From a virus (lineage: Duplodnaviria; Caudoviricetes): a stretch of 52,558 nt of DNA. The notes under the pieces were generated by a model. The model worked only from the letters and a program-made list of their open reading frames with translations. It did not search any database and had not been told where the DNA came from. Below are positions 14,402-30,739 of the stretch, in pieces. The position numbers and the translations under genes are program-made. The DNA lies in the IMG/VR virus record IMGVR_UViG_3300011115_000889, positions 1 to 52,558 of that record; one strand, given 5' to 3'. Positions within the stretch are counted from its first letter, which is position 1. Every line of letters starts with the position of its first letter.

Positions 14402-14409
14402 GGGTAGCA

Positions 14410-15414
14410 ATGCCATTAGTCAGGAAAGCAAAATCCTCGGTACCTGCACCACCAGTTTTTAATGTAACAAAACAGCAGTTGTACAACATTATTCGTAATG
14501 CGTTGTATCGGGCTGGGCGAGTTGCTGATGCGGATTCGTTGGCTTCAGCGATTATTAACTTGCAACCAGATTTACTTGAGCAAGCATTATTAACTATTAA
14601 TGTTGATGCTATTGGGCAAATTATTCGTGATTCAATTACGGCAGTTATTAATAATGCTGGTGTTTTGGCTGGTCAGGAAATTAAACCACTTATTGAAGCG
14701 ACACCTGATTGGGGTAACGCTAACACTTTGACGGGTAAACCAAAGGGTGAGTTCACTTTTAACATTCATAATCCTGTAGCGGATTTGTATGCGGAGCGTC
14801 AGGCTGGTCGTTTGGTTACGGCTATTAATGATTCTATGCGTTTGGCTATTCGTCAGATTATTAGTGATTCTTTTAGTAAGGAAATTTCGGTTCCTTACAC
14901 TGCTAAAAAGTTGCGTCAAATTATTGGGTTGCATCCTCGTTGGGCACAGGCAGTTGACAAGTTTTTTGACCGTACCTATAAGGGTTTATTGAAGCAGGGT
15001 TTGAATCCTGAGAAAGCGGTTGAGAGAACGGATTTGTTGACGGATAGGTATCGTCAAAAATTGATTCGTGCCCGTGCCACAATGATTGCTCGTACCGAGA
15101 TTCAGATTGCTCAAAACATGGGTCGTCAGTTGGCTTGGCAACAGGCTGTTGATGGTGGTTGGGTTGCTGGTGATTCTATGAAACAGTGGCAAACTGTTTA
15201 TAAGAATAATGCTGGTGGACCTCCTTGCGATAAGTGTGCCCCATTAGACGGAGTTCAGGTGCGTTGGGATAGTGCTTTTGATAATGGGCTACTTATGCCA
15301 CCTGCTCATCCTCATTGTCGTTGTACGGCGTTCCTAGTGCCTCCTGACCGTGGTTTGAATGATGCTGAGTGGATTAGGACTGGGCAAATGAGGTATTCGG
15401 GTGAACAGGCATGA
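14410..15414 (+). CDS. MuF / SPP1 gp7-family head morphogenesis protein
   Basis: RA.MIARTE, K.W, CDKC..LDG, PPAHPHCRC. Confidence 0.9.
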   Translation: MPLVRKAKSSVPAPPVFNVTKQQLYNIIRNALYRAGRVADADSLASAIINLQPDLLEQALLTINVDAIGQIIRDSITAVINNAGVLAGQEIKPLIEATPDWGNANTLTGKPKGEFTFNIHNPVADLYAERQAGRLVTAINDSMRLAIRQIISDSFSKEISVPYTAKKLRQIIGLHPRWAQAVDKFFDRTYKGLLKQGLNPEKAVERTDLLTDRYRQKLIRARATMIARTEIQIAQNMGRQLAWQQAVDGGWVAGDSMKQWQTVYKNNAGGPPCDKCAPLDGVQVRWDSAFDNGLLMPPAHPHCRCTAFLVPPDRGLNDAEWIRTGQMRYSGEQA

Positions 15415-16577
15415 AATCTGTTTATGTAGTCGTTCCAGTTACTAAACATCTGGCTGGTCAACATGACCAATCTAGTCATGGCAATTGGTCTGGGTCGCCA
15501 AAACTGACTATCTTAAATGAAAAAGGTAGCGAGAACGAATTTCTAAATGAAAGTTTACGAGTTGTTAGGTATGAAGAAAAAGGTAAAAACCCAGTTGACT
15601 ATGTTCTTTTTGCAGACGGAAAATACAAAATTATTGTTGCTCCAAAGCCTACTGACGGAACTAATTTTACTGGTTATCGTGGCATAGAGAGTAAAGGAGT
15701 TGGGGTTTTAATTGCCGAGGGCCCAAAAGCAAATCATTTAAGACTTACCTCTAATCTTGATAATTATTTTACTGTCAACCAAATAGCAGTTAAACCAAGT
15801 CACCAACGCAGGGGATTGGCTTCAGCAATGCTTCAATTTCACCGTGACATGTACCCAGAAGCGAACATTCAACATTCAGATGCTTTAACTGAAGATGGAA
15901 AATCATGGGCAACTGTAGTTAAACATCTTGCAGGTCAACATGACCAATCAACTCACGGTAATTGGGCTGGTGCCGAAGGTTACAAATCTGCTTCATTAGA
16001 TGACTTACCAGCCCTAGACCTTAGCAGACTTGATTCAACAACAATGGATGCTCGTAACAATTATGTTGGTTTTGGGTATCAATGGATGAATGATTATCTT
16101 CGTAGTGGCAACATTGATGATACGGTTAGAATAATTTACAACGAACAAATCCCTAAAGAACAAGGAATTGCTCAAATTGAATCCTTAAAAAATGCTTTGT
16201 ATGAAACAGAAACAACACAAGATTTAACAGTTACTAGATGGAGTTCTGGAGCAAGTCTTTTTAGGCAACAAGTTTCTACAATGTCTGAAGAAGACATTAA
16301 AGGGCTTGTAGGTAAAACTTTTGAAGCAAAAGGTTTTACATCAACTTCTGCCCCAAATAGTTTGCATCAAAGTGTTAATGATTCCTTCAAAGCGTCTGCA
16401 ACGGTTTTTGCAAACATTCACATGCCAGCAGGTACGCACGGGGCAACTATGGGTAACGATGAAGAGGGCGAGTTCGTTATTGCCCCAAATACTACTTTTG
16501 TGGTTATGGGAGCAAAAAGGTTGGATGAAACTAGGATTGTGTTAGACCTTTTAGTGACGGGACAGGAAAATGGATAG
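15411..16577 (+). CDS. tagged polyprotein: GNAT acetyltransferase + VIP2-type ADP-ribosyltransferase
   Basis: 2 tags; IAVKPSHQRRGLASAML; Y..MNDYLR, VTR, GFTSTS, EEGEF. Confidence 0.85.
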   Translation: MKSVYVVVPVTKHLAGQHDQSSHGNWSGSPKLTILNEKGSENEFLNESLRVVRYEEKGKNPVDYVLFADGKYKIIVAPKPTDGTNFTGYRGIESKGVGVLIAEGPKANHLRLTSNLDNYFTVNQIAVKPSHQRRGLASAMLQFHRDMYPEANIQHSDALTEDGKSWATVVKHLAGQHDQSTHGNWAGAEGYKSASLDDLPALDLSRLDSTTMDARNNYVGFGYQWMNDYLRSGNIDDTVRIIYNEQIPKEQGIAQIESLKNALYETETTQDLTVTRWSSGASLFRQQVSTMSEEDIKGLVGKTFEAKGFTSTSAPNSLHQSVNDSFKASATVFANIHMPAGTHGATMGNDEEGEFVIAPNTTFVVMGAKRLDETRIVLDLLVTGQENG

Positions 16578-18492
16578 ATTTACTGATTCGTTCTTGTCTG
16601 AAGTTAAGGGTGATGAGGCTTTACGCCACCGTTTACGGGCAGAGGTTATTCTTGGGCGTTCTCTTTTAGTAAAGCATTTGGCAGGTCAACATGACCAGAG
16701 TTCGCACGGCAACTGGGCTGATGGTGATGGTTCAAAAGAAATAAGTATTGAGCAACTTGCATCTATCATTAATGCAAATAAACCATACGACAGTCTTGAT
16801 GTTTGGCGTAAAACTTTGCAAGATGTTTTAAAAGCCACGGGTAAAACTGGTAAACCTACTTTTGGTGACACTTCACAGGGTATGGAGTTGTGGCGAAGTT
16901 TTGAGCAAGGTTCTGCCTATGACTTAGAAACCGAAGATGAAATTAGTTTGTCTGCTGAAGATAAAATTAAACAATTTATGGCTTCTGAGTTGCCTTACAT
17001 TTCTATGGGTAGAAACGGTATTGGTCTTTATGGTGCCCACACTAAAAGTGAGGCTGTGACATGGAGTCGTGGAAACTTTGGTCAAATAGTAAAAATGGCT
17101 TTGAAGCCTGATGCAAAAATTTTAACTATTCCTTCTTCTGATGCAAATGTAGGTTTTGTTCTTGCAAATGCTGATTTTTTGGCACCTAGAATTGGTTTAC
17201 CAAATAAAACGGCATCTTTGTCAGACTTTAAAACAAGTTGGTTTTTTACCGACAAATCATCAATTGTGAATCTTATGGCTTTAGCAATGGGTTATGACGC
17301 AATTAATTTTAATCCTAGCATTTATTATCCAAATGGTGCTTTGCCTGACCGTGAAATTGTTGTGTTAAATGCTGGTGCTTTAATTGTTCAAAAACCTGAC
17401 ACAGTTAAAAAACATTATTTAGGTCAACATGACCAATCCACGCACGGTAACTGGGCACACGGAGCAGTTAACGATTTTGCTGAAACCACAACTTTTAAAA
17501 ATGCTGTCAAAAAATTGGCTAAAACTTATGCTGACAAAATAGACACCACTTCAGGTCAGTATGGTGGTAGTCGTTCAGAAGACAGATTAGTTCAAATTCT
17601 TCATGGCGATGCTTTTGCTAGTTCTGCTCTTGGAAAACAGTTACAACAGCAAGTTAAAGACGCTTATCCTCGCGATGCTGTTTTTCTTAAAACTGGTGGA
17701 ATTTTTAATAACTCTTTTCAAGGAGTTATTAATCCTAATTTTGTAACTGGCAAAGATTATCCTGTTGTGATGTATGAAGCGTTGCTTCGTAGGGTGTCTG
17801 ATGAAGTTGTTAAACAAGCCACTTTTGCCAAATTTGATGCTTCTGAGTTGCTTTATCAAAGTTTTATTGCCGATGATTTAAAAGCCTTGCAAAAAGATGG
17901 AAAAGTTTGTCAGGCAATGGACGAAAAATCGTTTACTGATTTGTTGAAAAGTGACGACCCAAGGTTTAAGACACAATTTGAAACAGGAAAAAGCAATGGT
18001 GCCTACAGCAAAATTGGTCGTATGGCTGGTGAGTTGCGTTCTCAAAGCATGCCTATGTCGGAACCTGTTTCCAAACGACCTATTTATGGCTATGTGGCTG
18101 AAAATGATTTTGATGAAAGCATTTTGATTGATGGACCTGAACAGTATGGTGGTATTCGGGTTGTGTTTAAAGATGATGTTAAAACTCGTACAACAATGTC
18201 GGTTGGGGATTCGTTGTCAACTGGTTGTGTCCCTATTTCTATGACTCAAAGTGAAATTACTCCTTTTGATGCTTGGCGAGCGTCTGACAGAATTTTGTAC
18301 AGCACGGCAAGGGATGAGGGTTGGAATAATGACACTTATGACATTGGGTATCTTAATGAGGGTAGTTATTTTGAATCTCAAATCCATGATGGTGTTAAGT
18401 TGAGCGATGTTGAGGCTATTTACATTCCTTCGGATAGTTTTGATGACATTAGTCCCCTTGTTCCCAAGGGAATTAGGGTGGTAGAGTATTAA
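16570..18492 (+). CDS. tagged polyprotein: ART-like domain + DUF3626-like domain
   Basis: 2 tags; GIGLYG..GYDAI..EIVVLN; RFKTQFETG.SNG, RPIYGY, QYG, GDS, YFESQIH. Confidence 0.75.
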   Translation: MDRFTDSFLSEVKGDEALRHRLRAEVILGRSLLVKHLAGQHDQSSHGNWADGDGSKEISIEQLASIINANKPYDSLDVWRKTLQDVLKATGKTGKPTFGDTSQGMELWRSFEQGSAYDLETEDEISLSAEDKIKQFMASELPYISMGRNGIGLYGAHTKSEAVTWSRGNFGQIVKMALKPDAKILTIPSSDANVGFVLANADFLAPRIGLPNKTASLSDFKTSWFFTDKSSIVNLMALAMGYDAINFNPSIYYPNGALPDREIVVLNAGALIVQKPDTVKKHYLGQHDQSTHGNWAHGAVNDFAETTTFKNAVKKLAKTYADKIDTTSGQYGGSRSEDRLVQILHGDAFASSALGKQLQQQVKDAYPRDAVFLKTGGIFNNSFQGVINPNFVTGKDYPVVMYEALLRRVSDEVVKQATFAKFDASELLYQSFIADDLKALQKDGKVCQAMDEKSFTDLLKSDDPRFKTQFETGKSNGAYSKIGRMAGELRSQSMPMSEPVSKRPIYGYVAENDFDESILIDGPEQYGGIRVVFKDDVKTRTTMSVGDSLSTGCVPISMTQSEITPFDAWRASDRILYSTARDEGWNNDTYDIGYLNEGSYFESQIHDGVKLSDVEAIYIPSDSFDDISPLVPKGIRVVEY

Positions 18493-18494
18493 TC

Positions 18495-19478
18495 ATGGAA
18501 CTAACCAAAGGTAGTGTTTACGCTGTAAGGGCTGACGGAGCCGAGTTAATTTTTGATTCCGTTGACGCTGACGGTTATCCATACGGCTATTTACGCCAAA
18601 ACAATGGCAAAACCAGCACTATTGGTTTATTTGATAAGTGGCAAAAGGTTGGCAATTGGACAGTTGTTCAGGCTTTCACCAAACACCTAGCAGGGCAACA
18701 TGACCAAAGTTCACACGGTAACTGGGCTAAAGTAAAAACGAGTGTTAGGCATGCTTTTGGCGTAAACGACCTTGTGCTGGAAAACGCTGATGTTCATGAA
18801 TCAAAAATTAACGGTTCAACTTTTGCAACTTATTTTGATAACAGGGACAACATTACTGAAGACCAAAAACGGGATGTGTTGGCTTTAGTTCACGATTTGC
18901 AAACAATTGCACCGCTATCACCTATGTCTGAGGTAAAAATTGTTATTAGTAATAGTGCCCTTTTTGATAACGAATTTGAACGCGGTTGGACTATTAATTT
19001 TTCTGAGCCAGAACGAATGGTATCAAGATTTGACGAAACAGTTGGCAGAACTGTTAGGGAAATGAAAAAACCTGCTATTCACCAAGTTATTATTGCGGTT
19101 CGCCCCGAAGACATGAATCATTATGCTGATGAAGATACTGCTCGCCAGAGTTGGATGCCTTCGGCAGGGGCTAAACAATTTTTTGCTATGGAATACTTTT
19201 TGGCTCACGAATGGGGTCACGCAACTGATTATGATGCACTATTTCATAAAGGTGGTGACGGAACAATGTCGGGAAGTGGTTACAAAGATGAAAAAACTAC
19301 AGGTTTGATGTTGATGGCTCACGAAGACCAGTTAAGTCCGTATGGTAAAACCGATACTGGCGAGGGTTATGCTGAAGCGTTTGCTGAATGGTTTATGACC
19401 GATGGTAAGTCTGAGATTCCTATCGTTAAGGCTTTGGCTAAAGAACATAATTGGGGTATGCAGTACAAATGGAAGTAG
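18495..19478 (+). CDS. tagged zincin metallopeptidase with N-terminal ~60-aa partner domain
   Basis: 1 tag; HEWGH, LSPYG..EGYAEAFAEW. Confidence 0.8.
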   Translation: MELTKGSVYAVRADGAELIFDSVDADGYPYGYLRQNNGKTSTIGLFDKWQKVGNWTVVQAFTKHLAGQHDQSSHGNWAKVKTSVRHAFGVNDLVLENADVHESKINGSTFATYFDNRDNITEDQKRDVLALVHDLQTIAPLSPMSEVKIVISNSALFDNEFERGWTINFSEPERMVSRFDETVGRTVREMKKPAIHQVIIAVRPEDMNHYADEDTARQSWMPSAGAKQFFAMEYFLAHEWGHATDYDALFHKGGDGTMSGSGYKDEKTTGLMLMAHEDQLSPYGKTDTGEGYAEAFAEWFMTDGKSEIPIVKALAKEHNWGMQYKWK

Positions 19479-19487
19479 TGATTTAGT

Positions 19488-21560
19488 ATGTTGCAGAGTC
19501 CCCCAATGATTTCGGGTCAAAAAATTAGTTGTACTTTTGGCTTAGATAAATCTGTTGAAAAACATTTACAAGGCCAGCACAATCAGTCAACTCACGGTTC
19601 TTGGGCTGACCACGCATGGGGTAATCGTTTTGAACCTGTTGCTGGTTGGAAACCATCAGATGATAAATCGCAGTATTTAACTTTTGAGTCCACTATCCGT
19701 GGTGTAAGAATTACAGCAAATTTTAAATCTTTACAGGATTTCAAAGTATCAAAAGAAAATGATGCAGAAATTCAAAAGTATGTAAATGCTGTTTTGTTAC
19801 AAGTAAATGAGTTGGCTGAACATGCTCCTTTGCCAAAAAATACTGTGCTTAGAATTTTTGTTGGTGATGAGGCTTTAGCGACTGCTCCTACAGCAAGCGG
19901 TGAACCAGTTCCAGTAGGAGTAGCAGGGTTGCATCGTGGTGGCTGGGATACGGTAGCCAACAAGTCAGGTTCGTTAATTTATGTTGCTTCTACTGAATTT
20001 TTTGATAAACCAGATTTTAGCAAAAGACCAACAGACAGTTTTATGCCATCTATGCAAAATGTTGAGTACAAAGGACAATACTGGTTGGCTCATGAGTACG
20101 GTCATGCTAAACAAATGCGAATAAATCAAACTAACAATGATGTTGACACAGCCAATACTTATGCACTTTGGCAAAGATGCAAACTTGATTTAAGCACTTA
20201 TGGGCAAAAAAATTCTCATGAAGGTTTTGCGGAAGCGTTTTCTGATTGGTTTTTGAGTAAAGGTAAAAGCGATAATCCAGCAACTTATCTTTATGCTTAC
20301 GAAGGTCAATGGGCTTTTGACCGACAACCTGAATACGGTCAAAATGAAGTGTTAAAAAGCAAAACCAATAAAGACAATACTGTTTACACAATTGAAAACA
20401 TTTGTGATTTTGGTGAAGGTTTAAATAAACCTATTGCTAAATCGGTGTTTATTGTTCCCCCGTTAAGTTTTGTTAAACATTTAGCAGGGCAACATGACCA
20501 AAGTTCACACGGTAACTGGGCAGATGGCGGACCTGTTGCTGAAGGTGAGTACGGTCAATGGGGTGCTGAACGCCAACGCATGATTTTGAGCATGAAAGAT
20601 AAGGGCCCAAACATGTCGTGGTTGAATCGAATTAAAGAGTTATCAGATGCTTCTGTTGAAATTGGGGATAGGGCTAGGGATTGGGTTGATGGTAAAAATA
20701 ACGCTTATTGGAAACTTCAGTTATTAAATTATTTGGATGTTCGTGCTGTTGAACATCAAGGGGATTCGTCACTTATTGAAGAGTTTACAGATAATTTTTA
20801 TCAAAGAAACGCTGGAAGAATTTTATTAGATGCTGGTGACGAGTTTGCAAGCGGATTAAAACGAACCCTTAAAGAAATTTATAACATGGATTACAATTAC
20901 ATTAATGGTAAAAGACAAGACGAAACCATTAAAAGCAGGATTTTAGATGTTGAAGTTAATTTAGATGAGGGCACTATTAATGTAGAGGGTGGTGTTTACA
21001 ATCAATTTGATGACCAAATTGGTGAATTTGAAAGAACACTTAACACGACCACTGGAGTTGTTTCACATGATGTTTTAAACATTTGGGATTCTGATTATAA
21101 CAATACTGGGTTTGGAACTGTTTTTATTACTCAATCCGAAAACTATTACATCAGTCACGGTTTCAATGCTATTACTTTAGATACGGCTTGGAATGGTGCT
21201 TATACATGGGCAAAAATGGGCTACGATTGGTCGGGAAATCATCCGCAGGATTGGCGAGATGTCAGAAAAAACTTAACTGACCGTTTAACTCTTATTCCAG
21301 ATGAGCCAGAAAATAAACCAATTAGGGACGACATTCAAACTATGATTACTCGGTTGTATGGGGATTCTTTGGCTTCAGATTTCCCAACTCCGTATGACAT
21401 TGCAATGGTTGGCTACGGCGATGGAACAAATGGGTTGGGCGGAAAAGATTTGACCATGTGGCTTGGCAAAAGCATTTTATCAAATCAAAGATACCATTAC
21501 AAAAAGAAGTTAAATGTTGCACCTCGGCAAATCATAAGTAAGGGAATTGATAATGAATAG
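19488..21560 (+). CDS. tagged polyprotein: zincin peptidase + GNAT-like domain
   Basis: 2 tags; HEYGH, LSTYG..EGFAEAF; YNNTGFGT, GAYTWAKMGYDW. Confidence 0.75.
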   Translation: MLQSPPMISGQKISCTFGLDKSVEKHLQGQHNQSTHGSWADHAWGNRFEPVAGWKPSDDKSQYLTFESTIRGVRITANFKSLQDFKVSKENDAEIQKYVNAVLLQVNELAEHAPLPKNTVLRIFVGDEALATAPTASGEPVPVGVAGLHRGGWDTVANKSGSLIYVASTEFFDKPDFSKRPTDSFMPSMQNVEYKGQYWLAHEYGHAKQMRINQTNNDVDTANTYALWQRCKLDLSTYGQKNSHEGFAEAFSDWFLSKGKSDNPATYLYAYEGQWAFDRQPEYGQNEVLKSKTNKDNTVYTIENICDFGEGLNKPIAKSVFIVPPLSFVKHLAGQHDQSSHGNWADGGPVAEGEYGQWGAERQRMILSMKDKGPNMSWLNRIKELSDASVEIGDRARDWVDGKNNAYWKLQLLNYLDVRAVEHQGDSSLIEEFTDNFYQRNAGRILLDAGDEFASGLKRTLKEIYNMDYNYINGKRQDETIKSRILDVEVNLDEGTINVEGGVYNQFDDQIGEFERTLNTTTGVVSHDVLNIWDSDYNNTGFGTVFITQSENYYISHGFNAITLDTAWNGAYTWAKMGYDWSGNHPQDWRDVRKNLTDRLTLIPDEPENKPIRDDIQTMITRLYGDSLASDFPTPYDIAMVGYGDGTNGLGGKDLTMWLGKSILSNQRYHYKKKLNVAPRQIISKGIDNE

Positions 21561-21786
21561 AGATACAAAAATGGCAACCATGAGTTCCGTTTATGATGCT
21601 TGGGTTTCAAAGTACAAAAATGTTGCTAGTTTTAATCCCGAAAACCCCACTTCTGAACAATCTTTAGATTTTCATGAAATGTGTTCTGAAGCAGTTGGTG
21701 GTAAAAAACTTACTGCTTATCCACCTGAACTTATGGACAATCTTATGAAATTGCCTTTCTATAGCATTGACCCTGCCGATAATTAA
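21547..21786 (+). CDS. small protein, candidate partner/immunity protein for the upstream GNAT-like domain
   Basis: 79-aa ORF overlapping the upstream stop; no tag. Confidence 0.6.
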   Translation: MIMNRDTKMATMSSVYDAWVSKYKNVASFNPENPTSEQSLDFHEMCSEAVGGKKLTAYPPELMDNLMKLPFYSIDPADN

Positions 21787-21848
21787 GCGAGTTGCCCTTT
21801 TGAGGTATTACCTTTGGGGTATTCTTGATTAGTTGTTGAGGAGGTTTT

Positions 21849-22589
21849 GTGTCACGCATTGCACGGCTCGCTAAATTTATTGGGCTTGTTGAGTCTTCTG
21901 ATGCTGTCCTGATTAAACATCTTGCTGGTCAACATGACCAATCTACCCATGGCAACTGGGCTGAAGATGCATTTGATGATTTAGCAACTTGGGCTGAAAC
22001 TGCCGACAGTGAAATTGCTACAGATTACGATAAAAGAGATGCAGTATGGAATAGAACCCTGCGACAACAAGTTAAAAACGGGTTTTCTGCTAAAACACAT
22101 CCTGAATTTTTGCCAGCAATTGAACTTTATCTTAGTGAAGACGGTTACGAAATTAATAAATTGTTGCGTACTGGTTTTGTTCGTGACTTTGTAACATTGA
22201 GTTTTAACGATGCTATTGATGGTCTTGACACCGCAATTGATGAGGCTCCACCATTAGAAAAACCTGTCATTGCCTATCGTGGAGTTAAAGGTGCTGGTCT
22301 TGATTTTTTTGAAAATTTAAAAATTGGTGATTCTTTTGAAGACAAAGGTTATGCATCAACAACTTTAAGTGCTACAACCGCAAGTGAAGATTTTGCTGGG
22401 GCTGATTATGGTGACGGAATGGTATTACAAATGCATTTACCAGAAGGAACTCAGTGTCTTTTTCCGTCTGAATTTGTTGGCGATGATGGTTTTACATGGT
22501 CTGAAAGAGAATTATTGTTGCCTAGAGATTCTATTTTCAAAGTAACTAACATTCGTGGTCGTATCATAGACATGGAAGTTGAGCAATGA
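21849..22589 (+). CDS. tagged VIP2-type ADP-ribosyltransferase
   Basis: 1 tag; YEINKLLR, AYRG, GYASTT, ERELLL (R-S-E). Confidence 0.88.
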   Translation: MSRIARLAKFIGLVESSDAVLIKHLAGQHDQSTHGNWAEDAFDDLATWAETADSEIATDYDKRDAVWNRTLRQQVKNGFSAKTHPEFLPAIELYLSEDGYEINKLLRTGFVRDFVTLSFNDAIDGLDTAIDEAPPLEKPVIAYRGVKGAGLDFFENLKIGDSFEDKGYASTTLSATTASEDFAGADYGDGMVLQMHLPEGTQCLFPSEFVGDDGFTWSERELLLPRDSIFKVTNIRGRIIDMEVEQ

Positions 22590-24727
22590 AAAATAAATTT
22601 TATTATGATTCACCCCAAGGTTTATCACTTGTAGTTTCTAAACACCTTCAAGGGCAACACGACCAAGCCACTCACGGTAACTGGGCTGGGCATCATGGGC
22701 AAGCAGTTGACCGTAAAAATACTGCCCAAGGCAATCCTTATCCTCATCCAATTCAAACCGCTTACGACAATGTTGTGGCTGGAAAAGAAGGAATTGTTAG
22801 CCCAATTGACGCTCCTGCATGGTTGGATGCTATGGCTGACCGTACCGATAATCCTGATTTAACTAATTTGGAAATCCTTGGTACGCAGTATTTTACTAAA
22901 GATAATTTGGGCATTATGCGTGACCACATGCCTCAGATTCCTCCTGATACTCAAGAGGCTTTTATTAAGGCTATGCAGGCCCGTGGTGTCCGAGTTGATT
23001 TGGTTGATGTTACGCCTTTTGGTTTGCATCCGATTCAGGCTGAAATTTCGGCTACTAAATCTGGAAAAATTTTTCGGAAAATGAAAAAAGAAGGAGTTGA
23101 CGATACTCCTATTGTTGTTTCTAGTGATGATTTTGTGATTGATGGGCATCATCGTTGGGCCGCTGGACTTTTCCTTGGTTTGTCCCCTAAGCATAGAAAC
23201 ATTAAATTAAAGGCTTTGCGTGTTGACATGCCACAGGAGCAGTTGCTGGATGTGGTTTTGGCGTGGAATAAGGCTGTGGGTATTTCCTCTATTGCTTTGG
23301 GTGCTGATGTAAAAGATTCTATGAAAAAGATGTTGGCGTTTGACATTGCGGTGTTAAAAGGTAAGATTAAATCAACCGAGGTTGAGAAACATCTTCAAGG
23401 TCAACACGACCAGTCAACTCACGGACGCAGGTTCAACACCGAAGTTGCACCAGAAGTCGTTCATGATGTGCTGGCTCAAGTAGCCGAAAACGGTGGATTA
23501 TCAATCAAGTTAACAGACGGCTCACTACCTCCTGACGGCTACATGGTGTCAAGGAATAGTGAAAAGTTTGGCACTGTTGTCATGGCATCGGATTTCTTTA
23601 ACGAGAAAAAAGGAGCCAAGATTCTGGGTGCGTTTTTGATTAAGAACAAGGCAGAGTTGGGTTCTGGTAGGGCTTATCTTGGTGTGTGGCATGAAACATC
23701 TAAGACGGTTAATGGTGTAACGGTTGAGATACCAAAAGACCAGCAACGAGTTCATTTGGATGTTACAGACAAAATTGTTAGCAAGAAGCAAGCAGTTTCG
23801 TTGGGTAGAAGGCGTAACCAAATTAGTATTTGGGATGTCGTAAACTTTGACGAGATTCAAACAGGAGGTACTGGTGGAACAGTCGAAAAAGGAAATTATA
23901 AACATAGCCTCATCCCCGAAACCGTTGAATCAGATGACGGACGAGGAAATTATGGATTGGGCGGAAAAGATTTACGGGAAGTTACCGAAGCCTCAGTAAT
24001 TGTTCAGGTTCCTGTTAGTTCTTTTTTTACTAAACACCTTCAAGGGCAACATGACCAAAGTTCACATGGTTCGTGGGCTGGTGGTTCCAAAATCCCAATG
24101 GTTGATGAGTTTGCTGATGCTTGGATAGGTGGAACAGACAAGTATCCATTTGCTTATCTTGATGAAATTCGTGGTGCTTACAGGGTATTAACAGATGTTG
24201 CAGATAATTTTTATCCAAAAATGGATGAAAATGGCAGGGTGCAACCAAATTATAAAGAAGTTTTTGATTCAACTAAACAAATTCTTTTAGCCTTGGCAGA
24301 TGCTAAACCATTGAGTGAAACAATGTATAGGGGTTTATCTTTAAGTCAATTTGATTCTGGGCATGTTGAAAAATTGACAACTGTTGGTTCTACATTTAAA
24401 GAAGACCTTGCATCTTGGACTCCTGATGAAGGATTGGCAAAAACTTTTTCGCAAGAACGCTATGGTAGAAAAGCGGAAACATCTATTTTGATAAAAATTG
24501 ATGGGTTGCGTGGGATACCTTTGACTCCTCATACAAGCAATAAAAGCGAAGAAGTGTTAAGTGGCAAAGAAGTCATTGCTTCTGGTTCATACACAGTTTC
24601 TAAAGTTATAAAAACTAGCAATAATTCTTATGAAGTGACAGTGATTCAAAATCAGTTGCCCTATGACCCATTGGTTGTTGCGTCTAAAAATTTCAATACA
24701 GAAGAAGAGGGCGTTTTCATAAGATGA
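22586..24727 (+). CDS. tagged polyprotein: ParB/Srx-like + unknown domain + ADP-ribosyltransferase
   Basis: 3 tags; PIVVSSDDFVIDGHHRWAA; YLGVWH..HLDV..NQISIWD; MYRGL, LASWT, KEVI. Confidence 0.78.
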   Translation: MKNKFYYDSPQGLSLVVSKHLQGQHDQATHGNWAGHHGQAVDRKNTAQGNPYPHPIQTAYDNVVAGKEGIVSPIDAPAWLDAMADRTDNPDLTNLEILGTQYFTKDNLGIMRDHMPQIPPDTQEAFIKAMQARGVRVDLVDVTPFGLHPIQAEISATKSGKIFRKMKKEGVDDTPIVVSSDDFVIDGHHRWAAGLFLGLSPKHRNIKLKALRVDMPQEQLLDVVLAWNKAVGISSIALGADVKDSMKKMLAFDIAVLKGKIKSTEVEKHLQGQHDQSTHGRRFNTEVAPEVVHDVLAQVAENGGLSIKLTDGSLPPDGYMVSRNSEKFGTVVMASDFFNEKKGAKILGAFLIKNKAELGSGRAYLGVWHETSKTVNGVTVEIPKDQQRVHLDVTDKIVSKKQAVSLGRRRNQISIWDVVNFDEIQTGGTGGTVEKGNYKHSLIPETVESDDGRGNYGLGGKDLREVTEASVIVQVPVSSFFTKHLQGQHDQSSHGSWAGGSKIPMVDEFADAWIGGTDKYPFAYLDEIRGAYRVLTDVADNFYPKMDENGRVQPNYKEVFDSTKQILLALADAKPLSETMYRGLSLSQFDSGHVEKLTTVGSTFKEDLASWTPDEGLAKTFSQERYGRKAETSILIKIDGLRGIPLTPHTSNKSEEVLSGKEVIASGSYTVSKVIKTSNNSYEVTVIQNQLPYDPLVVASKNFNTEEEGVFIR

Positions 24728-25422
24728 GTGGATTAAAAGAAAGAATGTTTTTGTCTTTAATAGATGAAGAAAACGATGATGTAACTAAACATCTTGAGGG
24801 CAAACATGACCAGAGTTCACATGGTAATTGGGCTAAAAATAACGGGGTTATTCATAAACCAAATAATTTGAGTGGTGTAGCAATACCTTGGAAAACCAGT
24901 ACAGATTGGAGCGATGTTGTTCCAACGGGTGCCCCTGATGATAAACAAATTGAGTTTGGGGCAGGGTTAACTTTAGATTCTGCACCATTAGCATCAGTTG
25001 GACAAGGGAAAATTTTTACTGATAGTCAAGAAATTTCAAATTATGTTGACGGGGTTTTTGCTAAATACGGTTACGGTGACAGGGTTTGGAAATTGTATCC
25101 TGACGAAGCAAATCAATACTTGGTTGATGGTATTGAGGCTGGAGTTACCCGTGGCGATGCTCCAGAAGGTCATGTTTTGCATGGTGGGAACATTCCTGTA
25201 TTAATTTACAAACCTTCGGGTGTTAGCCAGTTCGTTTTGTTGCATGAAATTTCTCACATTCTTGAAGGCAACTGGACAGAGGGCAATGTGAATCATGGTG
25301 GTCACAATTTGCCGTTTTTGGAAACTTGGAAATACCTTTTACGCAATGAAGGCTTGGACAAACAGGCTAATGTTTTGGATTTGTTTACTTACAAAACCGA
25401 TGGCAATGGGGTGTTTTCATGA
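24724..25422 (+). CDS. tagged SprT-like metallopeptidase
   Basis: 1 tag; LLHEISH...GHNLPF. Confidence 0.75.
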   Translation: MSGLKERMFLSLIDEENDDVTKHLEGKHDQSSHGNWAKNNGVIHKPNNLSGVAIPWKTSTDWSDVVPTGAPDDKQIEFGAGLTLDSAPLASVGQGKIFTDSQEISNYVDGVFAKYGYGDRVWKLYPDEANQYLVDGIEAGVTRGDAPEGHVLHGGNIPVLIYKPSGVSQFVLLHEISHILEGNWTEGNVNHGGHNLPFLETWKYLLRNEGLDKQANVLDLFTYKTDGNGVFS

Positions 25423-26261
25423 TTTTAGATGAAGTAACTTTTGATGTGGTGTACCCAGATTTGGGTGTTAAGCATGGTGTCAGAGTTGAAAAGCATTTGC
25501 AAGGCAAGCATGACCAATCCAGCCATGGCAGTTGGGCACAAGGTACGCATTTAAATGCGGTCAAAGGTGGGCACAGTTTAACTACTAGGGAAATGCTGGA
25601 GTTACGAAAAAATACTTATGACCCATTGCAAAATAAACTTTATTATGCTGAAAGTTTGTTAAAAGAAAAAGTAATGGGTAAAGACCATTACGATGAATTA
25701 GAAAAAAATCAACCACAAGCACCACAAAGTAGTGATTTTGAATCACGGGACGATTATGTAAAAGCGTTTAAAGATTACAAAAAAGCCCACACTGTTTGGG
25801 CTAGAGAAATACATAAATTTGTTGTTTCGGATTTAGGTAAAGAAAATTTGAATGGCACTTTATCTGGAGTTAAAAAATACATTAATGCTGTTATTTATGA
25901 CCCTTGGTTTGTTGAAAATTTTGGTGACGGAAAACAGTTAAGAAGTAAGTTGGAAATTAAATTAAGTAATTCAATGACTTTGGCTGGGTCGTATTCTTAT
26001 GGTGTGATTGTTAGCCGCATTACTGGCATTGAAAAAACTTCAAGCGAGTTTAAGTTAGATACGCATTATACTTTTAGTGAAAACACTATTTTGCATGAGA
26101 TTGCTCACTATGCCACGGCTATTAGTGAGGATACTCCTCATGCGTCCCACGGTGTTGAGTTTGCCCAAAATCTTGTAACGCTTGCTGACCATTATTGGGG
26201 TGCAGAGTTGGGTGCTAGTTTGCGTAATTTTTATGTTCAAGAAGGTGTTTTAAATGGATAA
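25419..26261 (+). CDS. tagged SprT-like metallopeptidase
   Basis: 1 tag; TILHEIAH...SHGVEF. Confidence 0.78.
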   Translation: MILDEVTFDVVYPDLGVKHGVRVEKHLQGKHDQSSHGSWAQGTHLNAVKGGHSLTTREMLELRKNTYDPLQNKLYYAESLLKEKVMGKDHYDELEKNQPQAPQSSDFESRDDYVKAFKDYKKAHTVWAREIHKFVVSDLGKENLNGTLSGVKKYINAVIYDPWFVENFGDGKQLRSKLEIKLSNSMTLAGSYSYGVIVSRITGIEKTSSEFKLDTHYTFSENTILHEIAHYATAISEDTPHASHGVEFAQNLVTLADHYWGAELGASLRNFYVQEGVLNG

Positions 26262-26358
26262 TTATTTAATCGTTTCTAACATTGACCCTATTGACCCTGA
26301 TTGCATTCCTGAGCGAATAAAACTTGAAGAATTGCCTGAGCCGAGAAAACCAGAATAG
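26254..26358 (+). CDS. 34-aa acidic peptide (MDNYLIVSNIDPIDPDCIPE...), candidate peptidase inhibitor
   Basis: Hand translation; overlaps the upstream stop, GAAGG RBS. Confidence 0.5.
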   Translation: MDNYLIVSNIDPIDPDCIPERIKLEELPEPRKPE

Positions 26359-26395
26359 TTAATTTTGTTTGCTATTCTGTCGGGGAGGAGTTCAA

Positions 26396-28402
26396 ATGTC
26401 ATTTGATTTAACAAATTTAAGTAATGCTAATTTGGAGGCATTGCATAAGTCTTTGCATGCTGATGTTTCTGACCCTGTAAAAGTTCAAGCCCATCACCTT
26501 GTCACAACCGAGTTGCTGGTTCGTGGTTTAGACCATGGACATAATGGCGATGAGTGGAATCGTGCCGTTATTGAAATTGGTGTTGAAAATGATGTGCCTG
26601 TTAATAAGGCGTTTGATGGCATTCCTTCTGATGTGGTTGATACGGTCAATGTTGAGTTGGGTTATCCTGAATCTGTTTCTAAAACCACTATTTTGACTGT
26701 TGATGGTTACACCTTAAAGTTTGATACTTTCAAAAAAGATGGTGAACCTGAAGATAGATTGAACCCTACTCAATCTGCTGTGTATGAGTTTTTGGAATCT
26801 TTAACGGAAACTGTTGGCAAATTTAACCAGAGTTCGGATGCTAACGGGGCACATTACATGGAAGAAAACCCGTTTGTTGACGAAGGTTTGATGTGTGCTA
26901 ATTGCGTCTTTTTTCAAGGCGGTGGCGGTTGTGAAATCGTTGAGGGTCAGATTGACCACATGGCTTTGTGTAAGTTTTGGATTATTCCTGAAAACCTTTT
27001 AAATGGAATGTCCAAGCATCTTCAGGGTCAGCATGACCAGAGAAGTCATGGTCTTTGGTCACATACTACCTCTTCTGTTAGTGCATCTGATTTGAACAAA
27101 ATTGGTTTGTTTATGAATAAACGCACTATGCGTTTGAATTACAATGAAGGTTATGACGCTGGTGCTGAGTTAATACGCACTAATCCTGATGCTCAAAAAT
27201 TGCCAGAAGTTTTGGCTCGCCATAACGATTTGCATGCAACATTAACTAAGTTCAAAACAAGCACTGATGAATTATTTAATGTGCATGTTTCTGAAGCCAT
27301 TATTACTGATGCAGGTTTTTTTGATGGCTTGAATGGAAATAAGCGTCAGTTCCGCCGTCTTTTGGTTGACCCACTTCCTTGGGTAAATGGGATTCCTTTG
27401 ATGAAACATCTTTCTGGTCAACACGACCAGTCCAGTCACGGCTCTTGGGCTAAGGGCAATTTATCAACCCACGACTGGGGTTATGGAAGTGACCGTCCTG
27501 AAGTTTTAAGTAAACCGCAATCAATTGAAGTTGGTGGCGAAACTATTACTGCTTCAAGTTCTGGTTTGTGGCATTATTTGATGAGCGATGGTCGTGGTGG
27601 TTGGGAGTTAACTCCTGAACGCAAAGAATTTCATGATAAACTTATTGCAGAGGCTTTAGATGGAGTTCCTAAATCTTCTGACCCTACTTTTACTATGATG
27701 GGTGGCGGTGGTGGTTCTGGTAAAGGAACCGTTCAGAAAAAACCTCAAACAGTTAAATTGGCTAAAGATGCTGGAGTTCCTTTGCCTCCTGAAGGCATGG
27801 CTGTAAAAATTGATGCTGACGAAATTAAAGCAAAATTACCAGATTTTAAAGTTTATTTGGATGCTGGCAGAAAAGCAGATGTGGCTGGTTGGACACATGA
27901 AGAATCTTCAATTATTGGTAAAGCAATTCAAGCGGCCGCTATTAAGGCTGGTAAAGATGTTTTCTTGGATGGTACTGGTAATTCAAGTGCAAGTAGTTTA
28001 AATAAAAAAATTACTCAAGCCCGTGATGCTGGTTACAAAGTTAATGGTTGTTATGTAAGTGCAAGTATTGATTTGGCTTGGAAACAAAACATGCAAAGGT
28101 CTGTAGAAGACCCTAATCGTGGTCTTGTTCCTGCCCCTAATTTCTTAAATAATCACAAATCGGTTTCAGCAATTATTCCTCAAATGGCTAGTCAGTTTGA
28201 TAATTTTGTGCTGTTTGATACTAATCATGATACTCGCGTTGAGGGTGCCCCTGCTGAACTAATTGCAACTGCTTCCCGTGGTGGTAGAATAAACATTGTT
28301 AATAGTTCTTTGTGGAAAACATTTATTAACAAAGCAAGTGATAAAACAACTGTTCAAGATTTGGATGCTCGGTATGTTCAATTTCAGAAAGGGAATAAAT
28401 AA
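26396..28402 (+). CDS. polyprotein: His-rich N-domain + HiPIP-like 4-Cys domain + tagged unknown domain + tagged zeta-toxin P-loop kinase
   Basis: Start after GGAGGAG; CANC..CEIV.G.I..LCKFW; 2 tags; MGGGGGSGKGT, IDADEIK, HEES, DGT. Confidence 0.8.
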   Translation: MSFDLTNLSNANLEALHKSLHADVSDPVKVQAHHLVTTELLVRGLDHGHNGDEWNRAVIEIGVENDVPVNKAFDGIPSDVVDTVNVELGYPESVSKTTILTVDGYTLKFDTFKKDGEPEDRLNPTQSAVYEFLESLTETVGKFNQSSDANGAHYMEENPFVDEGLMCANCVFFQGGGGCEIVEGQIDHMALCKFWIIPENLLNGMSKHLQGQHDQRSHGLWSHTTSSVSASDLNKIGLFMNKRTMRLNYNEGYDAGAELIRTNPDAQKLPEVLARHNDLHATLTKFKTSTDELFNVHVSEAIITDAGFFDGLNGNKRQFRRLLVDPLPWVNGIPLMKHLSGQHDQSSHGSWAKGNLSTHDWGYGSDRPEVLSKPQSIEVGGETITASSSGLWHYLMSDGRGGWELTPERKEFHDKLIAEALDGVPKSSDPTFTMMGGGGGSGKGTVQKKPQTVKLAKDAGVPLPPEGMAVKIDADEIKAKLPDFKVYLDAGRKADVAGWTHEESSIIGKAIQAAAIKAGKDVFLDGTGNSSASSLNKKITQARDAGYKVNGCYVSASIDLAWKQNMQRSVEDPNRGLVPAPNFLNNHKSVSAIIPQMASQFDNFVLFDTNHDTRVEGAPAELIATASRGGRINIVNSSLWKTFINKASDKTTVQDLDARYVQFQKGNK

Positions 28403-29181
28403 TGGATAGTCGTATTCTTGAACTGATGTCGCAAGATGTTCAGGCTGGCGTAACAGAAAATGACAGTATTTATGTTACTGATGCTGAATCTAGTGAAGCG
28501 TGGAAAAGTTTAGAATCCATCTATCAAAATCTAAAAAATTCAAACATTGTTATGGCGATTCCTGCGGAATGGGATAATGCTGATTATGACCTTGACATGC
28601 TTTACGGTAAAGGATTTTTAGATAAGTATGCAGACACAGAATCAGTTGAAAAAATGTCTTTGGTTTCCAAGGCTGTTAGTGAAGACCGATACACCCTAGG
28701 TCCAATGTATGTTCCTGACCGTGTTGATGCTCATGGTGAGTGGACAAGTTCTGAAGAGTTGCAAAAATCGGTTTGGGATTATGTTCGTAAAGATGACCGC
28801 CGTATCCGTTTACAGCACAATAAAGATGTTGTGGCTGGTGAATGGGTTGAAGTCATGGCTTGGCCTTACGAAGTTTCAGTTCCTATGCAAAAGTCTGATG
28901 GTTCTATGGAAGATGTTACTTTCCCAAAGGACACTGTTTTCCTTGGTGTTGTTTGGGAACCTTGGGCTTGGGAAATGGTGAAGGCTGGCAAGTTGTTGGG
29001 TTATTCCATTGGTGGTCGTGCCCAGCGTCTTGAAGTTGATTTACCAGTTGCTAAAGAAGATGGTTCATCTACCGTGTCGGGTCCTACAGTGAACACTGTT
29101 CATGTGGATACTGTTATGGGTGGGCAGAAAAAGAAGCCCAAAAAAGATGTAAAGGTGACTGACAAAGATGTTTCTGACTAG
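28402..29181 (+). CDS. XkdF-like prohead serine protease with ~85-aa N-terminal extension
   Basis: RYTLGPMYVPDRVDAHGEW, RLQH, W..VKAGKLLGYSIGG. Confidence 0.85.
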   Translation: MDSRILELMSQDVQAGVTENDSIYVTDAESSEAWKSLESIYQNLKNSNIVMAIPAEWDNADYDLDMLYGKGFLDKYADTESVEKMSLVSKAVSEDRYTLGPMYVPDRVDAHGEWTSSEELQKSVWDYVRKDDRRIRLQHNKDVVAGEWVEVMAWPYEVSVPMQKSDGSMEDVTFPKDTVFLGVVWEPWAWEMVKAGKLLGYSIGGRAQRLEVDLPVAKEDGSSTVSGPTVNTVHVDTVMGGQKKKPKKDVKVTDKDVSD

Positions 29182-30733: not shown

Positions 30734-30739
30734 TTAACC

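What the first reader, a model, noticed from the sequence alone, without database searches (positions are those of the whole stretch)
15411..28402. 13-kb array of enzymatic effectors, each headed by the same His-rich peptide tag, inside the head-assembly operon
Seen: 15 copies of KHL.G[QK]H[DN]Q.[ST]HG.W in nine ORFs between muF and the prohead protease. Each copy is followed directly by its own domain: GNAT (15489), VIP2 ART (15966), ART-like (16717), DUF3626-like (17455), zincins (18726, 19605), GNAT-like (20520), VIP2 ART (21960), ParB-like (22685), unknown (23432), ART (24077), SprT-like (24832, 25536), unknown (27059) and zeta kinase (27449). The tag occurs nowhere else in the ORF track. 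Its codons vary synonymously, so selection acts on the peptide. Known: MuF-fused polymorphic toxins and phage polyvalent proteins use these enzyme classes, and T4 targets internal proteins with a short capsid-targeting sequence. Inference: the tag is a portable packaging or ejection signal that loads many host-modifying or anti-defence enzymes into the virion without fusing each to MuF. I do not know of a description of this tag.
Basis: partly seen in the sequence, partly recalled or inferred. Interest (0 to 1): 0.95.

Follow-up and report, generated by a model that had tools for sequence, protein, structure and literature searches.

The report
Shared tag heading phage capsid cargo
A quarter of this uncultured actinobacterial phage genome encodes fifteen different enzyme modules in the head-assembly operon, each headed by the same short histidine-rich peptide, which probably marks proteins for loading into the capsid and cutting apart, and which I did not find described in print.

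Summary
There are 15 copies of V-x-K-H-L-x-G-x-H-D-Q-x-[ST]-H-G-x-W, all on the + strand. All lie in nine ORFs between MuF (14410-15414) and the XkdF-type prohead protease (28402-29181). Shuffles of the window give 0.02 copies.

The tag is not private to this phage.
- A profile of it finds 674 cluster representatives among 1.84 billion proteins, with up to 19 copies in one protein.
- In 72 related viral loci it occurs only between MuF and the scaffold gene.
- It always precedes a domain; median spacing is 245 aa.
- Cargo is very diverse: 1143 segments fall into 386 clusters.
- AlphaFold models it as a disordered linear motif.
- Natural MuF-tag, portal-tag and XkdF-tag fusions exist.
- An unrelated head module, with a different portal, protease and capsid family, uses it the same way.

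Best reading (0.45): a combined junction and address motif for capsid-internal, ejected effectors. It would be cut by the prohead protease and needed for loading, like T4's capsid-targeting sequence. No step of this is shown experimentally.

The framework (polyvalent proteins, MuF toxins) is known. I found no description of the tag in the searches I could run.

The parts
12902..14401 (+). portal protein (Portal_Mu family)
   Evidence: Pfam PF06074 E 4.6e-40
14410..15414 (+). MuF / SPP1 gp7-type head morphogenesis protein, a separate ORF whose stop overlaps the start of the first tagged ORF
   Evidence: Pfam PF04233, 39.1 bits against cut-off 29.6; several 'head morphogenesis' PHROGs
15411..16577 (+). 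tagged ORF 1: leader-tag-GNAT(weak)-tag-ART
16570..18492 (+). tagged ORF 2: leader-tag-unknown-tag-DUF3626-like
18495..19478 (+). tagged ORF 3: 61-aa N piece-tag-zincin (HEWGH)
19488..21560 (+). tagged ORF 4: leader-tag-zincin (HEYGH)-tag-unknown 340-aa domain
21849..22589 (+). tagged ORF 5: leader-tag-VIP2/C3-like ADP-ribosyltransferase
   Evidence: Pfam 60.6 bits; AF2 pLDDT 85.6; Foldseek VIP2 E 1.8e-12
22586..24727 (+). tagged ORF 6: leader-tag-ParB-like-tag-unknown-tag-possible ART
24724..25422 (+). tagged ORF 7: leader-tag-HExxH domain
25419..26261 (+). tagged ORF 8: leader-tag-SprT/HEXXH_Rv0185-like metallohydrolase
26369..28402 (+). tagged ORF 9 (likely start at 26396): conserved untagged N module + Cys-rich piece-tag-unknown-tag-zeta-toxin-like kinase
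   Evidence: Pfam Zeta_toxin 70.9 bits; alignment A4; AF2
15444..15488 (+). tag 1
15921..15965 (+). tag 2
16672..16716 (+). tag 3
17410..17454 (+). tag 4 (KHY variant)
18681..18725 (+). tag 5
19560..19604 (+). tag 6 (HNQ variant)
20475..20519 (+). tag 7
21915..21959 (+). tag 8
22640..22684 (+). tag 9
23387..23431 (+). tag 10 (ends HGRR, no W)
24032..24076 (+). tag 11
24787..24831 (+). tag 12
25491..25535 (+). tag 13
27014..27058 (+). tag 14
27404..27448 (+). tag 15
28402..29181 (+). XkdF-type prohead serine protease, candidate reader and cutter of the tag
   Evidence: Pfam PF14550, 45.7 bits against cut-off 24; 36 homologues aligned
29942..30733 (+). scaffold-like coiled-coil acidic protein; downstream limit of the tag zone in relatives
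   Evidence: sequence; homologues in 31 loci, none with tags past it
31146..32123 (+). major capsid protein (weak Phage_cap_E match)
   Evidence: homologues in 26 loci

Best explanation
The ~20-residue tag is an intrinsically disordered linear motif. It marks the N-terminal boundary of every module destined for the inside of the prohead. I propose it does two linked jobs, like the capsid-targeting sequence of T4 internal proteins. First, it is the recognition and cleavage junction read by the HK97-type prohead serine protease (XkdF here, Peptidase_S78 in another lineage). Polyproteins and carrier fusions (MuF-, portal- and protease-cargo) would thus be cut into single enzymes. Second, because it is also kept near the N-terminus of single-domain ORFs, it is what recruits free-standing cargo into the assembling prohead core. 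The released enzymes (ADP-ribosyltransferases, zincins, a ParB-like domain, a zeta-like kinase and many unknown domains) would then be ejected with the DNA and act on the actinobacterial host early in infection.

Shown: the motif, its selection at peptide level, its strict position in the head operon, one tag per domain, its disorder in models, its presence at carrier-cargo junctions, cassette-wise shuffling, and its reuse by an unrelated head module.

For: Position:
- 0 tags lie upstream of MuF in 54 loci. The first tag lies a median of 43 bp after the MuF ORF.
- In 36 loci with XkdF, 279 tags lie upstream of XkdF, 23 lie between XkdF and the scaffold gene, and 1 lies inside the XkdF ORF.
- 0 tags lie past the scaffold gene (31 loci) or the capsid gene (26 loci).
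- All tags are on the head-gene strand.

One tag per domain:
- Median spacing is 245 aa. The tail after the last tag has a median of 279 aa and a 5th percentile of 134 aa.
- 15 window cargos fall in 15 clusters.

Peptide-level selection:
- The third codon position is 54% identical, against 78% and 85% for the first two.
- 6 of the 13 invariant columns of the ART cassette alignment lie in the tag.
- The first tag's core residues (K, H, H-D-Q and the third H) are invariant in all 37 last-ORF homologues.

Disorder:
- pLDDT is 50-65 with no secondary structure over the tag, next to an ART domain at 88-98.
- pLDDT is below 50 over the tag of ORF9.

Junction use:
- MuF-tag-cargo in 9 representatives, portal-tag in P0063, XkdF-tag in P0082.
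- In a phage with a Phage_portal, Peptidase_S78 and HK97 capsid module: portal-tag-like-TopoIB, MuF-like-tag-kinase-like and GNAT-tag-ART.

N-terminal tags on single-domain ORFs, with leaders of 11-34 aa in the window, argue that each cargo needs its own tag.

Homologous cargo domains occur fused to head proteins in PHROG families called head maturation protease, minor head protein and head morphogenesis.

Precedent, from passages only:
- Prohead proteases remove 20-254-aa N-terminal propeptides from ejection proteins at a short motif, and T4 propeptides target proteins to the core (PMC10052503).
- A polyvalent protein was found in the phi24B virion by proteomics (bioRxiv 10.64898/2026.04.10.717836).
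Against: - There is no experimental datum on packaging or cleavage for any tagged protein. No cultured phage with the tag was found. A tblastn of the tag against 50,697 phage records gave no match, and all 19 phage-type representatives among the 20 looked up come from metagenomes.
- The structural proteins of the window (capsid, scaffold, protease, portal) carry no tag. If XkdF also cuts them, it does so at other sites.
- A 17-20-residue invariant motif with three His, Asp and Gln is longer and more chemically suggestive than a usual protease site. This leaves room for metal binding or another reader.
- In locus L077 a cargo is fused to XkdF through a decayed tag, so a tag is not obligatory at every junction.
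- The tag is nearly unchanged between phages whose portal, protease and capsid families differ. That fits a conserved protease specificity, but it fits a host-side or intrinsic function equally well.
Confidence: 0.45

Rival explanations
1. Pure address label. The tag binds a prohead component (scaffold, capsid interior, MuF or portal) and loads cargo. It is never cleaved. Multi-domain ORFs carry several tags only because cassettes were joined.
For: N-terminal tags occur on single-domain ORFs. The tag is strictly confined to the head operon. Tag-plus-domain cassettes shuffle as units among close relatives. The tag is a disordered linear motif.
Against: Tags sit directly after MuF, portal and XkdF domains, which are already prohead residents. 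One tag per domain is kept even in proteins with 9-19 tags, where one address would do. Unrelated capsid, scaffold and portal families use the same tag, which argues against a lineage-specific docking surface.
Confidence: 0.2
2. The tag is the processing site of the zincin-like metallopeptidases embedded in the array (the Iyer et al. 2017 model for polyvalent proteins), not of the prohead protease.
For: Four of the 15 window cargos carry HExxH. 23 of 25 complete arrays contain at least one HExxH cargo. The paper predicts such processing (PMC5512222, abstract and passages). A His/Asp-rich site could sit in a metal centre.
Against: Two complete arrays (L062, L070) have no HExxH cargo. The tagged ORFs of the independent 95-kb phage have none in the stretches I fetched. 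The zincins are themselves tagged cargo belonging to several unrelated clusters.
Confidence: 0.1
3. The tag acts after ejection, in the host. It could be a handle for a host chaperone or unfoldase that pulls or refolds ejected proteins, a localisation signal, or a small His3/Asp metal-binding site needed by every effector.
For: The motif is nearly invariant across phages with different head-protein families. It has three invariant His plus Asp and Gln, with fixed H-x4-H spacing. All lineages looked at may share an actinobacterial host range: WhiB and DUF732 genes occur in the window.
Against: This does not explain why tags are confined to the head operon and absent from the other genes of the window. 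It does not explain tags in non-enzymatic head-module proteins such as the Tudor-tag-acidic tail proteins next to XkdF. The scan of one genome for each of 185,579 species confirmed no tag, so hosts apparently do not use this motif themselves.
Confidence: 0.12
4. The tag is mainly an evolutionary device. It would be a conserved junction that lets cassettes recombine, or an inert linker inherited with them, with no signalling role.
For: Arrays of the three closest relatives differ by gain, loss and reordering of whole tag-plus-domain cassettes. Neighbouring window cargos have their best matches in different relatives.
Against: Homologous recombination needs DNA identity, but mean pairwise tag DNA identity is 72% and third positions are 54% identical, with Ser and Leu switching codon boxes. 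Conservation is at the peptide level and as strong as at catalytic residues.
Confidence: 0.05

Closest known systems
Phage polyvalent proteins (Iyer, Burroughs, Anand, de Souza, Aravind 2017, PMC5512222; passages read)
   Same: Many unrelated effector domains (ART, zincin MPTase, GNAT, ParB-like, zeta-like kinase) are strung together next to virion genes and often fused to MuF. They are predicted to be packaged and injected, and processing by peptidases is predicted. One relative carries the Pfam family ART-PolyVal.
   Different: In the window the string is split into nine ORFs, and none of the LPD/PolyVal Pfam families matches at E <= 0.1. Every module is headed by one conserved 20-residue motif. 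I did not find that motif mentioned in the passages returned for linker, motif, cleavage, repeat, peptide or histidine. The paper's supplements could not be seen.
MuF polymorphic toxins (Jamet et al. 2017, PMC5576092)
   Same: A MuF head protein serves as carrier of variable toxic C-terminal domains in the head module. Nine tag-bearing representatives are MuF-tag-cargo fusions.
   Different: The window's MuF is a separate ORF. There are 15 cargos rather than one. No immunity genes were looked for. The six terms I searched in that paper (linker, cleavage, conserved motif, central domain, histidine, pre-toxin) gave no passage.
T4 internal proteins and Alt with the capsid-targeting sequence, and the propeptides of giant-phage ejection proteins (PMC10052503 passages; T4 details recalled)
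   Same: A short N-terminal signal shared by otherwise unrelated head-internal proteins. It is read during prohead assembly and removed by the prohead protease, and the cargo is ejected into the host. This is the closest match to how the tag probably works.
   Different: The sequence is unrelated (T4 uses about 10 residues ending L-x-E; recalled). The protease family differs (S77 against S78_2/S78). Here the signal is also internal and repeated up to 19 times per protein, and cleavage is not shown.
Encapsulin cargo-loading peptides (recalled)
   Same: A short disordered peptide addresses diverse enzymes to the interior of an HK97-fold shell. A ferritin/Dps-like gene also sits in this head module.
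   Different: Encapsulin peptides are mostly C-terminal and of different sequence. Here the tag is always N-terminal to its cargo, and the Dps-like protein carries no tag.

Membership tests
Phage polyvalent proteins (Iyer et al. 2017) | Two or more unrelated effector domains in one polypeptide | tested here: met
   5 of 9 ORFs hold 2-3 tagged domains from different sequence clusters. Relatives hold up to 19.
Phage polyvalent proteins (Iyer et al. 2017) | Encoded beside virion or late genes | tested here: met
   The array lies between portal-MuF and XkdF-scaffold-capsid.
Phage polyvalent proteins (Iyer et al. 2017) | Signature Pfam families (LPD, ART-PolyVal, MPTase-PolyVal and the like) | tested here: not met
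   None matches the nine window ORFs at E <= 0.1. ART-PolyVal matches at E 4.9e-25 in tagged cargo of locus L061 only.
MuF polymorphic toxins (Jamet et al. 2017) | N-terminal MuF domain fused to a C-terminal toxin domain | tested here: not met
   The window's MuF ends at 15414 as its own ORF. The fused form is present in 9 representatives.
MuF polymorphic toxins (Jamet et al. 2017) | Cognate immunity gene downstream; temperate phage | not tested
   No search for immunity genes or an integrase was made.
T4-type capsid-targeting sequence | N-terminal ~10-residue signal ending in the gp21 site L/I-x-E, with a prohead protease of family S77 (recalled definition) | tested here: not met
   The tag sequence is unrelated. 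The protease is Peptidase_S78_2.
T4-type capsid-targeting sequence | Signal sufficient to load a foreign protein and removed on maturation | not testable with these tools
   This needs a prohead assembly assay.
R-S-E (C3/VIP2-like) ADP-ribosyltransferases (cargo of ORF1 and ORF5) | Pfam ADPrib_exo_Tox above cut-off; Arg, Ser-Thr-Ser/Thr and Glu-x-Glu motifs; ART fold | tested here: met
   46.5 and 60.6 bits against a cut-off of 23.4. S170 invariant and R144, T171-T172, E219 and E221 kept in at least 90% of 50 homologues. Foldseek VIP2 E 1.8e-12, plus C3, iota Ia and CDTa.
Zeta-toxin kinases (last cargo of ORF9) | Pfam Zeta_toxin above cut-off | tested here: met
   70.9 bits against a cut-off of 22.3, residues 430-617.
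Encapsulin cargo-loading peptide | Terminal (mostly C-terminal) peptide binding the shell interior (recalled definition) | tested here: not met
   The tag is N-terminal to its cargo. At least 20 aa, and a median of 279 aa, follow the last tag. Binding is not testable here.

The most novel reading that the evidence does not exclude
The tag is a universal, transplantable 'load and release' signal for tailed-phage capsids. Any protein headed by these ~20 residues would be recruited into the prohead, cut free by an HK97-type protease and injected. It would work across head modules with unrelated portal, protease and capsid sequences. Whole lineages of abundant freshwater actinophages would spend up to a quarter of their genome on swappable tagged effector cassettes. 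Most of these are enzyme folds with no known family. The VIP2-like ARTs earlier read as anti-eukaryote 'Trojan horse' toxins would instead be injected anti-host or anti-defence enzymes.
Probability: 0.3. Interest if true: 0.85.

Novelty: new variant of a known kind. Interest (0 to 1): 0.72.

Why it matters
If the tag is a loading and processing signal, it gives a sequence-only way to list the injected protein arsenal of uncultured phages. Here 1143 cargo segments fall in 386 clusters, and 17 of the 20 cluster representatives scanned among the commoner families have no Pfam family. It also gives a compact handle for engineering protein delivery by phage capsids.

It would also change how phage-borne VIP2-like ADP-ribosyltransferases in freshwater actinophages are read. 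They were interpreted as toxins against eukaryotic grazers (PMC6802176, passages). Here they sit as tagged modules inside the head operon, as T4 Alt-like injected enzymes would.

The scale is unusual: 13 kb, or 24.7% of this record, and about 26 kb in a 172-kb relative.

Tried and rejected
Co-folding. I co-folded the XkdF protease (residues 80-259, 34-row alignment as used) with the tag alignment. The score was 0.00 in both runs, controls were not run, and the verdict was 'no answer'. This is no evidence either way.

Cultured phages carrying the tag.
- Megablast of 12000-32000 against 50,697 phage records gave no match.
- tblastn of a 30-aa tag gave no match at E <= 10.
- tblastn of ORF6 hit 482 records. 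In the 40 rows listed, the hits cover only the ParB-like part, from residue 95 on.
- tblastn of the ORF9 N-terminus hit one record, Actinomycetia phage DSL-LC01 'capsid maturation protease'. Its 30-kb head region has no tag.

Bacterial and archaeal genomes. One genome per species was scanned. 37 pattern matches were found and none was confirmed.

Family libraries. No Pfam, NCBIfam or named PHROG family covers the tag. phrog_2859, of unknown function, contains it at profile positions ~265-289.

Conserved N module of ORF9.
- The AF2 model is usable only for residues 1-112.
- Foldseek against PDB gave no hit at E <= 0.001.
- A PDB profile search gave nothing below E 0.76.
- The protein atlas gave no usable hit.
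- A VIA-align wide search had not finished after eight collecting calls and a last one (110). I never saw its result.

Ni(II)-type self-cleavage at (S/T)-x-H (chemistry recalled). I considered and dropped this. The required Ser/Thr two residues before the third His is Ser in only 38% of 859 tags.

Clustering. A loose single-linkage clustering of cargo merged unrelated domains. It was replaced by a strict one.

False positive. P0112, one of the 150 listed representatives, is a vertebrate tyrosine phosphatase.

Literature searches that found no description of the tag: (six motif strings, 0 papers). Supplements of PMC5512222 and the other papers could not be read and may hold alignments that show the motif.

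Full report
**What is in the window**

The window is a whole IMG/VR virus record of 52,558 bases, estimated 87% complete. It has no close relative among 50,697 deposited phage genomes. It carries a WhiB gene (9759-9935, E 2.6e-16) and a DUF732 protein. Both point to an actinobacterial host. The WhiB argument is the one used for freshwater actinophages in PMC6802176 (passages).

The head module reads as follows:
- portal (Portal_Mu), 12902-14401
- MuF, 14410-15414
- nine tightly packed ORFs, 15411-28402
- XkdF-type prohead protease, 28402-29181
- a ferritin/Dps-like gene
- a coiled-coil scaffold-like gene, 29942-30733
- a small capsid-associated gene
- the major capsid protein, 31146-32123

**The observation**

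A six-frame search finds exactly 15 copies of the motif. All are on the + strand and all lie in the nine ORFs. One has KHY in place of KHL and one lacks the Trp. Shuffled windows give 0.02 copies on average.

The codons differ synonymously. Third positions are 54% identical, against 78% and 85% at the first two positions. Ser and Leu switch codon boxes. Selection is therefore on the peptide.

Each tag is followed by a different domain. The 15 cargo segments fall in 15 different sequence clusters. The domain labels stand as follows:
- Firm: two VIP2/C3-like ADP-ribosyltransferases and a zeta-toxin-like kinase.
- Suggestive: two related zincins, two HExxH/SprT-like metallohydrolases, a ParB-like domain, a weak GNAT, a weak DUF3626 and a possible third ART.
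- Not supported by my tests: 'ART-like' at 16717 and 'GNAT-like' at 20520.

The array is 12,992 bases, or 24.7% of the record, and encodes 4193 residues.

**The tag elsewhere**

A profile of the 15 copies was searched against 1.84 billion cluster representatives. It finds 674 proteins at E <= 0.001 and 160 at E <= 1e-10. One protein of 7059 aa holds up to 19 copies. A 2201-aa protein made of nine ART domains holds nine copies.

One of the 150 listed hits is a vertebrate false positive. The other 149 hold two or more tags by my own HMM. Twenty representatives were looked up, and the 19 phage-type ones are all from metagenomes. The only informative name was 'SPP1 gp7 family putative phage head morphogenesis protein'.

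In IMG/VR, the narrow pattern KHLxG[QK]HD matched 182 stretches. Of these, 127 were confirmed and 72 loci were kept. Those loci hold 501 tags. Of 115 new loci, 112 hold a tag, 94 hold two or more, and none has tags on both strands.

I found no tag in one genome for each of 185,579 bacterial and archaeal species, nor in deposited phage genomes.

From 859 distinct copies, the consensus is V-x-K-H-L-x-G-x-H-D-Q-[SK]-[TS]-H-G-[NS]-W-A-x-G, followed by a Gly/Ser-rich stretch. A short form, K-H-G-x-H-D-Q, also occurs.

**Anatomy and context**

The tag always precedes a domain:
- Median spacing is 245 aa.
- The first tag has a median position of 32.
- After the last tag come a median of 279 aa, with a 5th percentile of 134 aa.

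Position in the genome is strict:
- In 54 loci with a MuF homologue, no tag lies upstream of MuF. The first tag lies a median of 43 bp after the MuF ORF's end.
- In 36 loci with XkdF, 279 tags lie upstream of it. Another 23 lie just downstream, spread over 20 loci, and 1 lies inside the XkdF ORF.
- No tag lies beyond the scaffold gene (31 loci) or the capsid gene (26 loci).

The downstream tags belong to small proteins built as coil, Hva1-Tudor domain, tag and acidic tail, or as tag and acidic tail alone.

The last array ORF begins with a conserved untagged N module with invariant His, Glu, Arg, Asp and Trp residues. Variable inserts follow, and then the first tag, whose core residues are invariant in all 37 aligned sequences. 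In two loci this ORF runs on into the XkdF protease domain.

Twenty-five loci, counting the window, hold both flanks. Their arrays span 5.3 to 13 kb, and the window's is the longest.

**Cargo**

The 1143 cargo segments fall in 386 strict clusters, of which 292 are singletons. I scanned one representative of each of 20 clusters chosen from the commoner families not already named. Seventeen have no Pfam match at E <= 0.05. The exceptions are DUF3626 (weak), DRAT, and ART-PolyVal, a family defined on polyvalent proteins.

The three closest relatives have near-identical portals. They differ from the window by gain, loss and reordering of whole tag-plus-domain cassettes. Neighbouring window cargos have their best matches in different relatives. 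The cassette is thus the unit of exchange.

**Structure**

With a 50-sequence alignment, AlphaFold2 models the ART domain of ORF5 at pLDDT 88-98. The leader and tag (residues 1-40) come out at 50-65, with no secondary structure over the tag and no packing on the domain. The tag of ORF9 is likewise below 50. It behaves as a disordered linear motif, to be read by something in trans.

**Junctions and an independent lineage**

Nine representatives are MuF-tag-cargo fusions, with the tag within about 35 residues of the end of the MuF match (3 to 32 residues). One is portal-tag-cargo. In one, the tag abuts the last strand of an XkdF protease domain and is followed by small tagged domains.

A complete 95-kb phage with terminal repeats has a different portal family (Phage_portal). 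It also has a Peptidase_S78-type protease (E 4.5e-4, just under the cut-off) and an HK97 Phage_capsid protein. It uses the tag in three places: between portal and a topoisomerase IB domain (a weak copy), between a MuF-like domain and a kinase-like domain, and between a GNAT and an ART.

A complete 172-kb phage has tags from about 9.3 to 35.8 kb, and one more just after its XkdF gene.

**How it most likely works**

Three facts constrain the answer.

First, every cargo, even a single-domain ORF, keeps a tag behind a short leader. The tag is therefore needed by each module and is not merely a spacer.

Second, the tag is kept at junctions after MuF, portal and protease. These are prohead residents in their own right, so an address alone does not explain it, whereas a release site does.

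Third, the same motif serves head modules whose portal, protease and capsid have diverged beyond recognition.

The HK97-type prohead serine protease fits all three. It is present in the prohead core. It is encoded at the end of the tag zone. Prohead-protease specificity can also stay constant across distant phages. In giant phages, the protease removes 20-254-residue N-terminal propeptides from ejection proteins at a short shared motif, and T4 propeptides target proteins to the core (PMC10052503, passages).

I therefore favour a combined address and cleavage junction, at confidence 0.45. That polyvalent proteins do reach virions is supported by proteomics of phi24B gp47 (bioRxiv 10.64898/2026.04.10.717836, passages).

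The rivals are:
- a pure address (0.2)
- cleavage by the array's own zincins, as Iyer et al. proposed for polyvalent proteins (0.1); 23 of 25 complete arrays have an HExxH cargo, but two do not, nor do the fetched parts of the independent 95-kb phage
- a role after ejection in the host, or a metal site (0.12)
- a mere recombination junction (0.05), which the synonymous codon variation argues against

**What is known and what is new**

The frame is known. Phage polyvalent proteins and MuF-borne toxins were described in 2017 (PMC5512222, PMC5576092), and capsid-targeting signals are known from T4.

The window fails the letter of the MuF-toxin definition, because its MuF is a separate ORF. It also lacks the PolyVal Pfam signatures. 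It clearly belongs to the same kind of system.

What I could not find in print is the tag itself:
- six motif strings matched 0 of about 8.4 million papers and preprints;
- the passages of the two 2017 papers returned for linker, motif, cleavage, repeat, peptide and histidine do not mention it;
- no Pfam or NCBIfam model covers it.

Supplements could not be read and might show it in alignments.

**Verdict**

The finding is real, widespread and mechanistically suggestive. It is a new variant of a known kind.

Noticed in passing
window 29168-29665: A ferritin/Dps-like gene (Pfam Ferritin E 3.9e-14) sits inside the head module between the prohead protease and the scaffold gene. It carries no tag. 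Homologues lie at the same place in loci L021 and L071. This recalls ferritin-like cargo of encapsulins.
   Followed up: partly
window 14258, 14294, 21766, 26281, 26290 (+) and 5581 (-): The 10-mer ATTGACCCTR occurs 6 times, against 0.16 expected. Two copies encode the IDPATG repeat in the portal tail. The others lie in the two short gaps that split the tagged array (21560-21849 and 26261-26369), where small untagged reading frames end in or contain IDP.
   Followed up: partly
window 26396-26740 (ORF9 residues 1-115): A conserved untagged N-terminal module heads the last array ORF. It has invariant L..LH..LH, HH, E, R and D.W residues in all 37 homologues. Its AF2 pLDDT is 73-89. It has no Foldseek, PDB-profile or atlas match. 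In two relatives the same ORF continues into the XkdF protease domain.
   Followed up: partly
loci L025 14317-14892, L062 10106-11493, L020 9937-10215 and others: Just after XkdF, many relatives encode proteins built as coil, Hva1-Tudor domain, tag and a very acidic tail. The tail has repeated DDSEGE motifs and a terminal DDMDILRP motif. The tag-plus-tail part sometimes stands as its own 90-aa ORF. The window has no such gene.
   Followed up: partly
L088 14144-16756 (record G003): A portal protein (Phage_portal) is fused at its C-terminus to a eukaryote-type topoisomerase IB catalytic domain. A weak tag copy lies between the two.
   Followed up: partly
protein P0002 (2201 aa): A single protein consists of nine tandem ADPrib_exo_Tox domains (summed E 1.5e-124), each with its own tag.
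   Followed up: no
L077 14592-16493: A cargo is fused straight onto XkdF. The tag at the junction has decayed: KH became KN, HDQ became QEQ and HGAW became IGAY, compared with the homologous position in L025.
   Followed up: no
window 3264-4193 (-), 9735-10067, 11260-12877: The window also encodes a histone-deacetylase-family protein (E 2.8e-50), WhiB, and a C5 cytosine methylase followed by a second SAM methyltransferase directly upstream of the portal gene. No terminase was seen between these and the portal, but I did not search for one.
   Followed up: no
window 15966-16577 and 21960-22589: VIP2-like ARTs of freshwater actinophages were interpreted in PMC6802176 (passages) as 'Trojan horse' toxins against eukaryotic grazers. 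Here they are tagged modules of the head operon, which suggests injected anti-host enzymes instead.
   Followed up: partly
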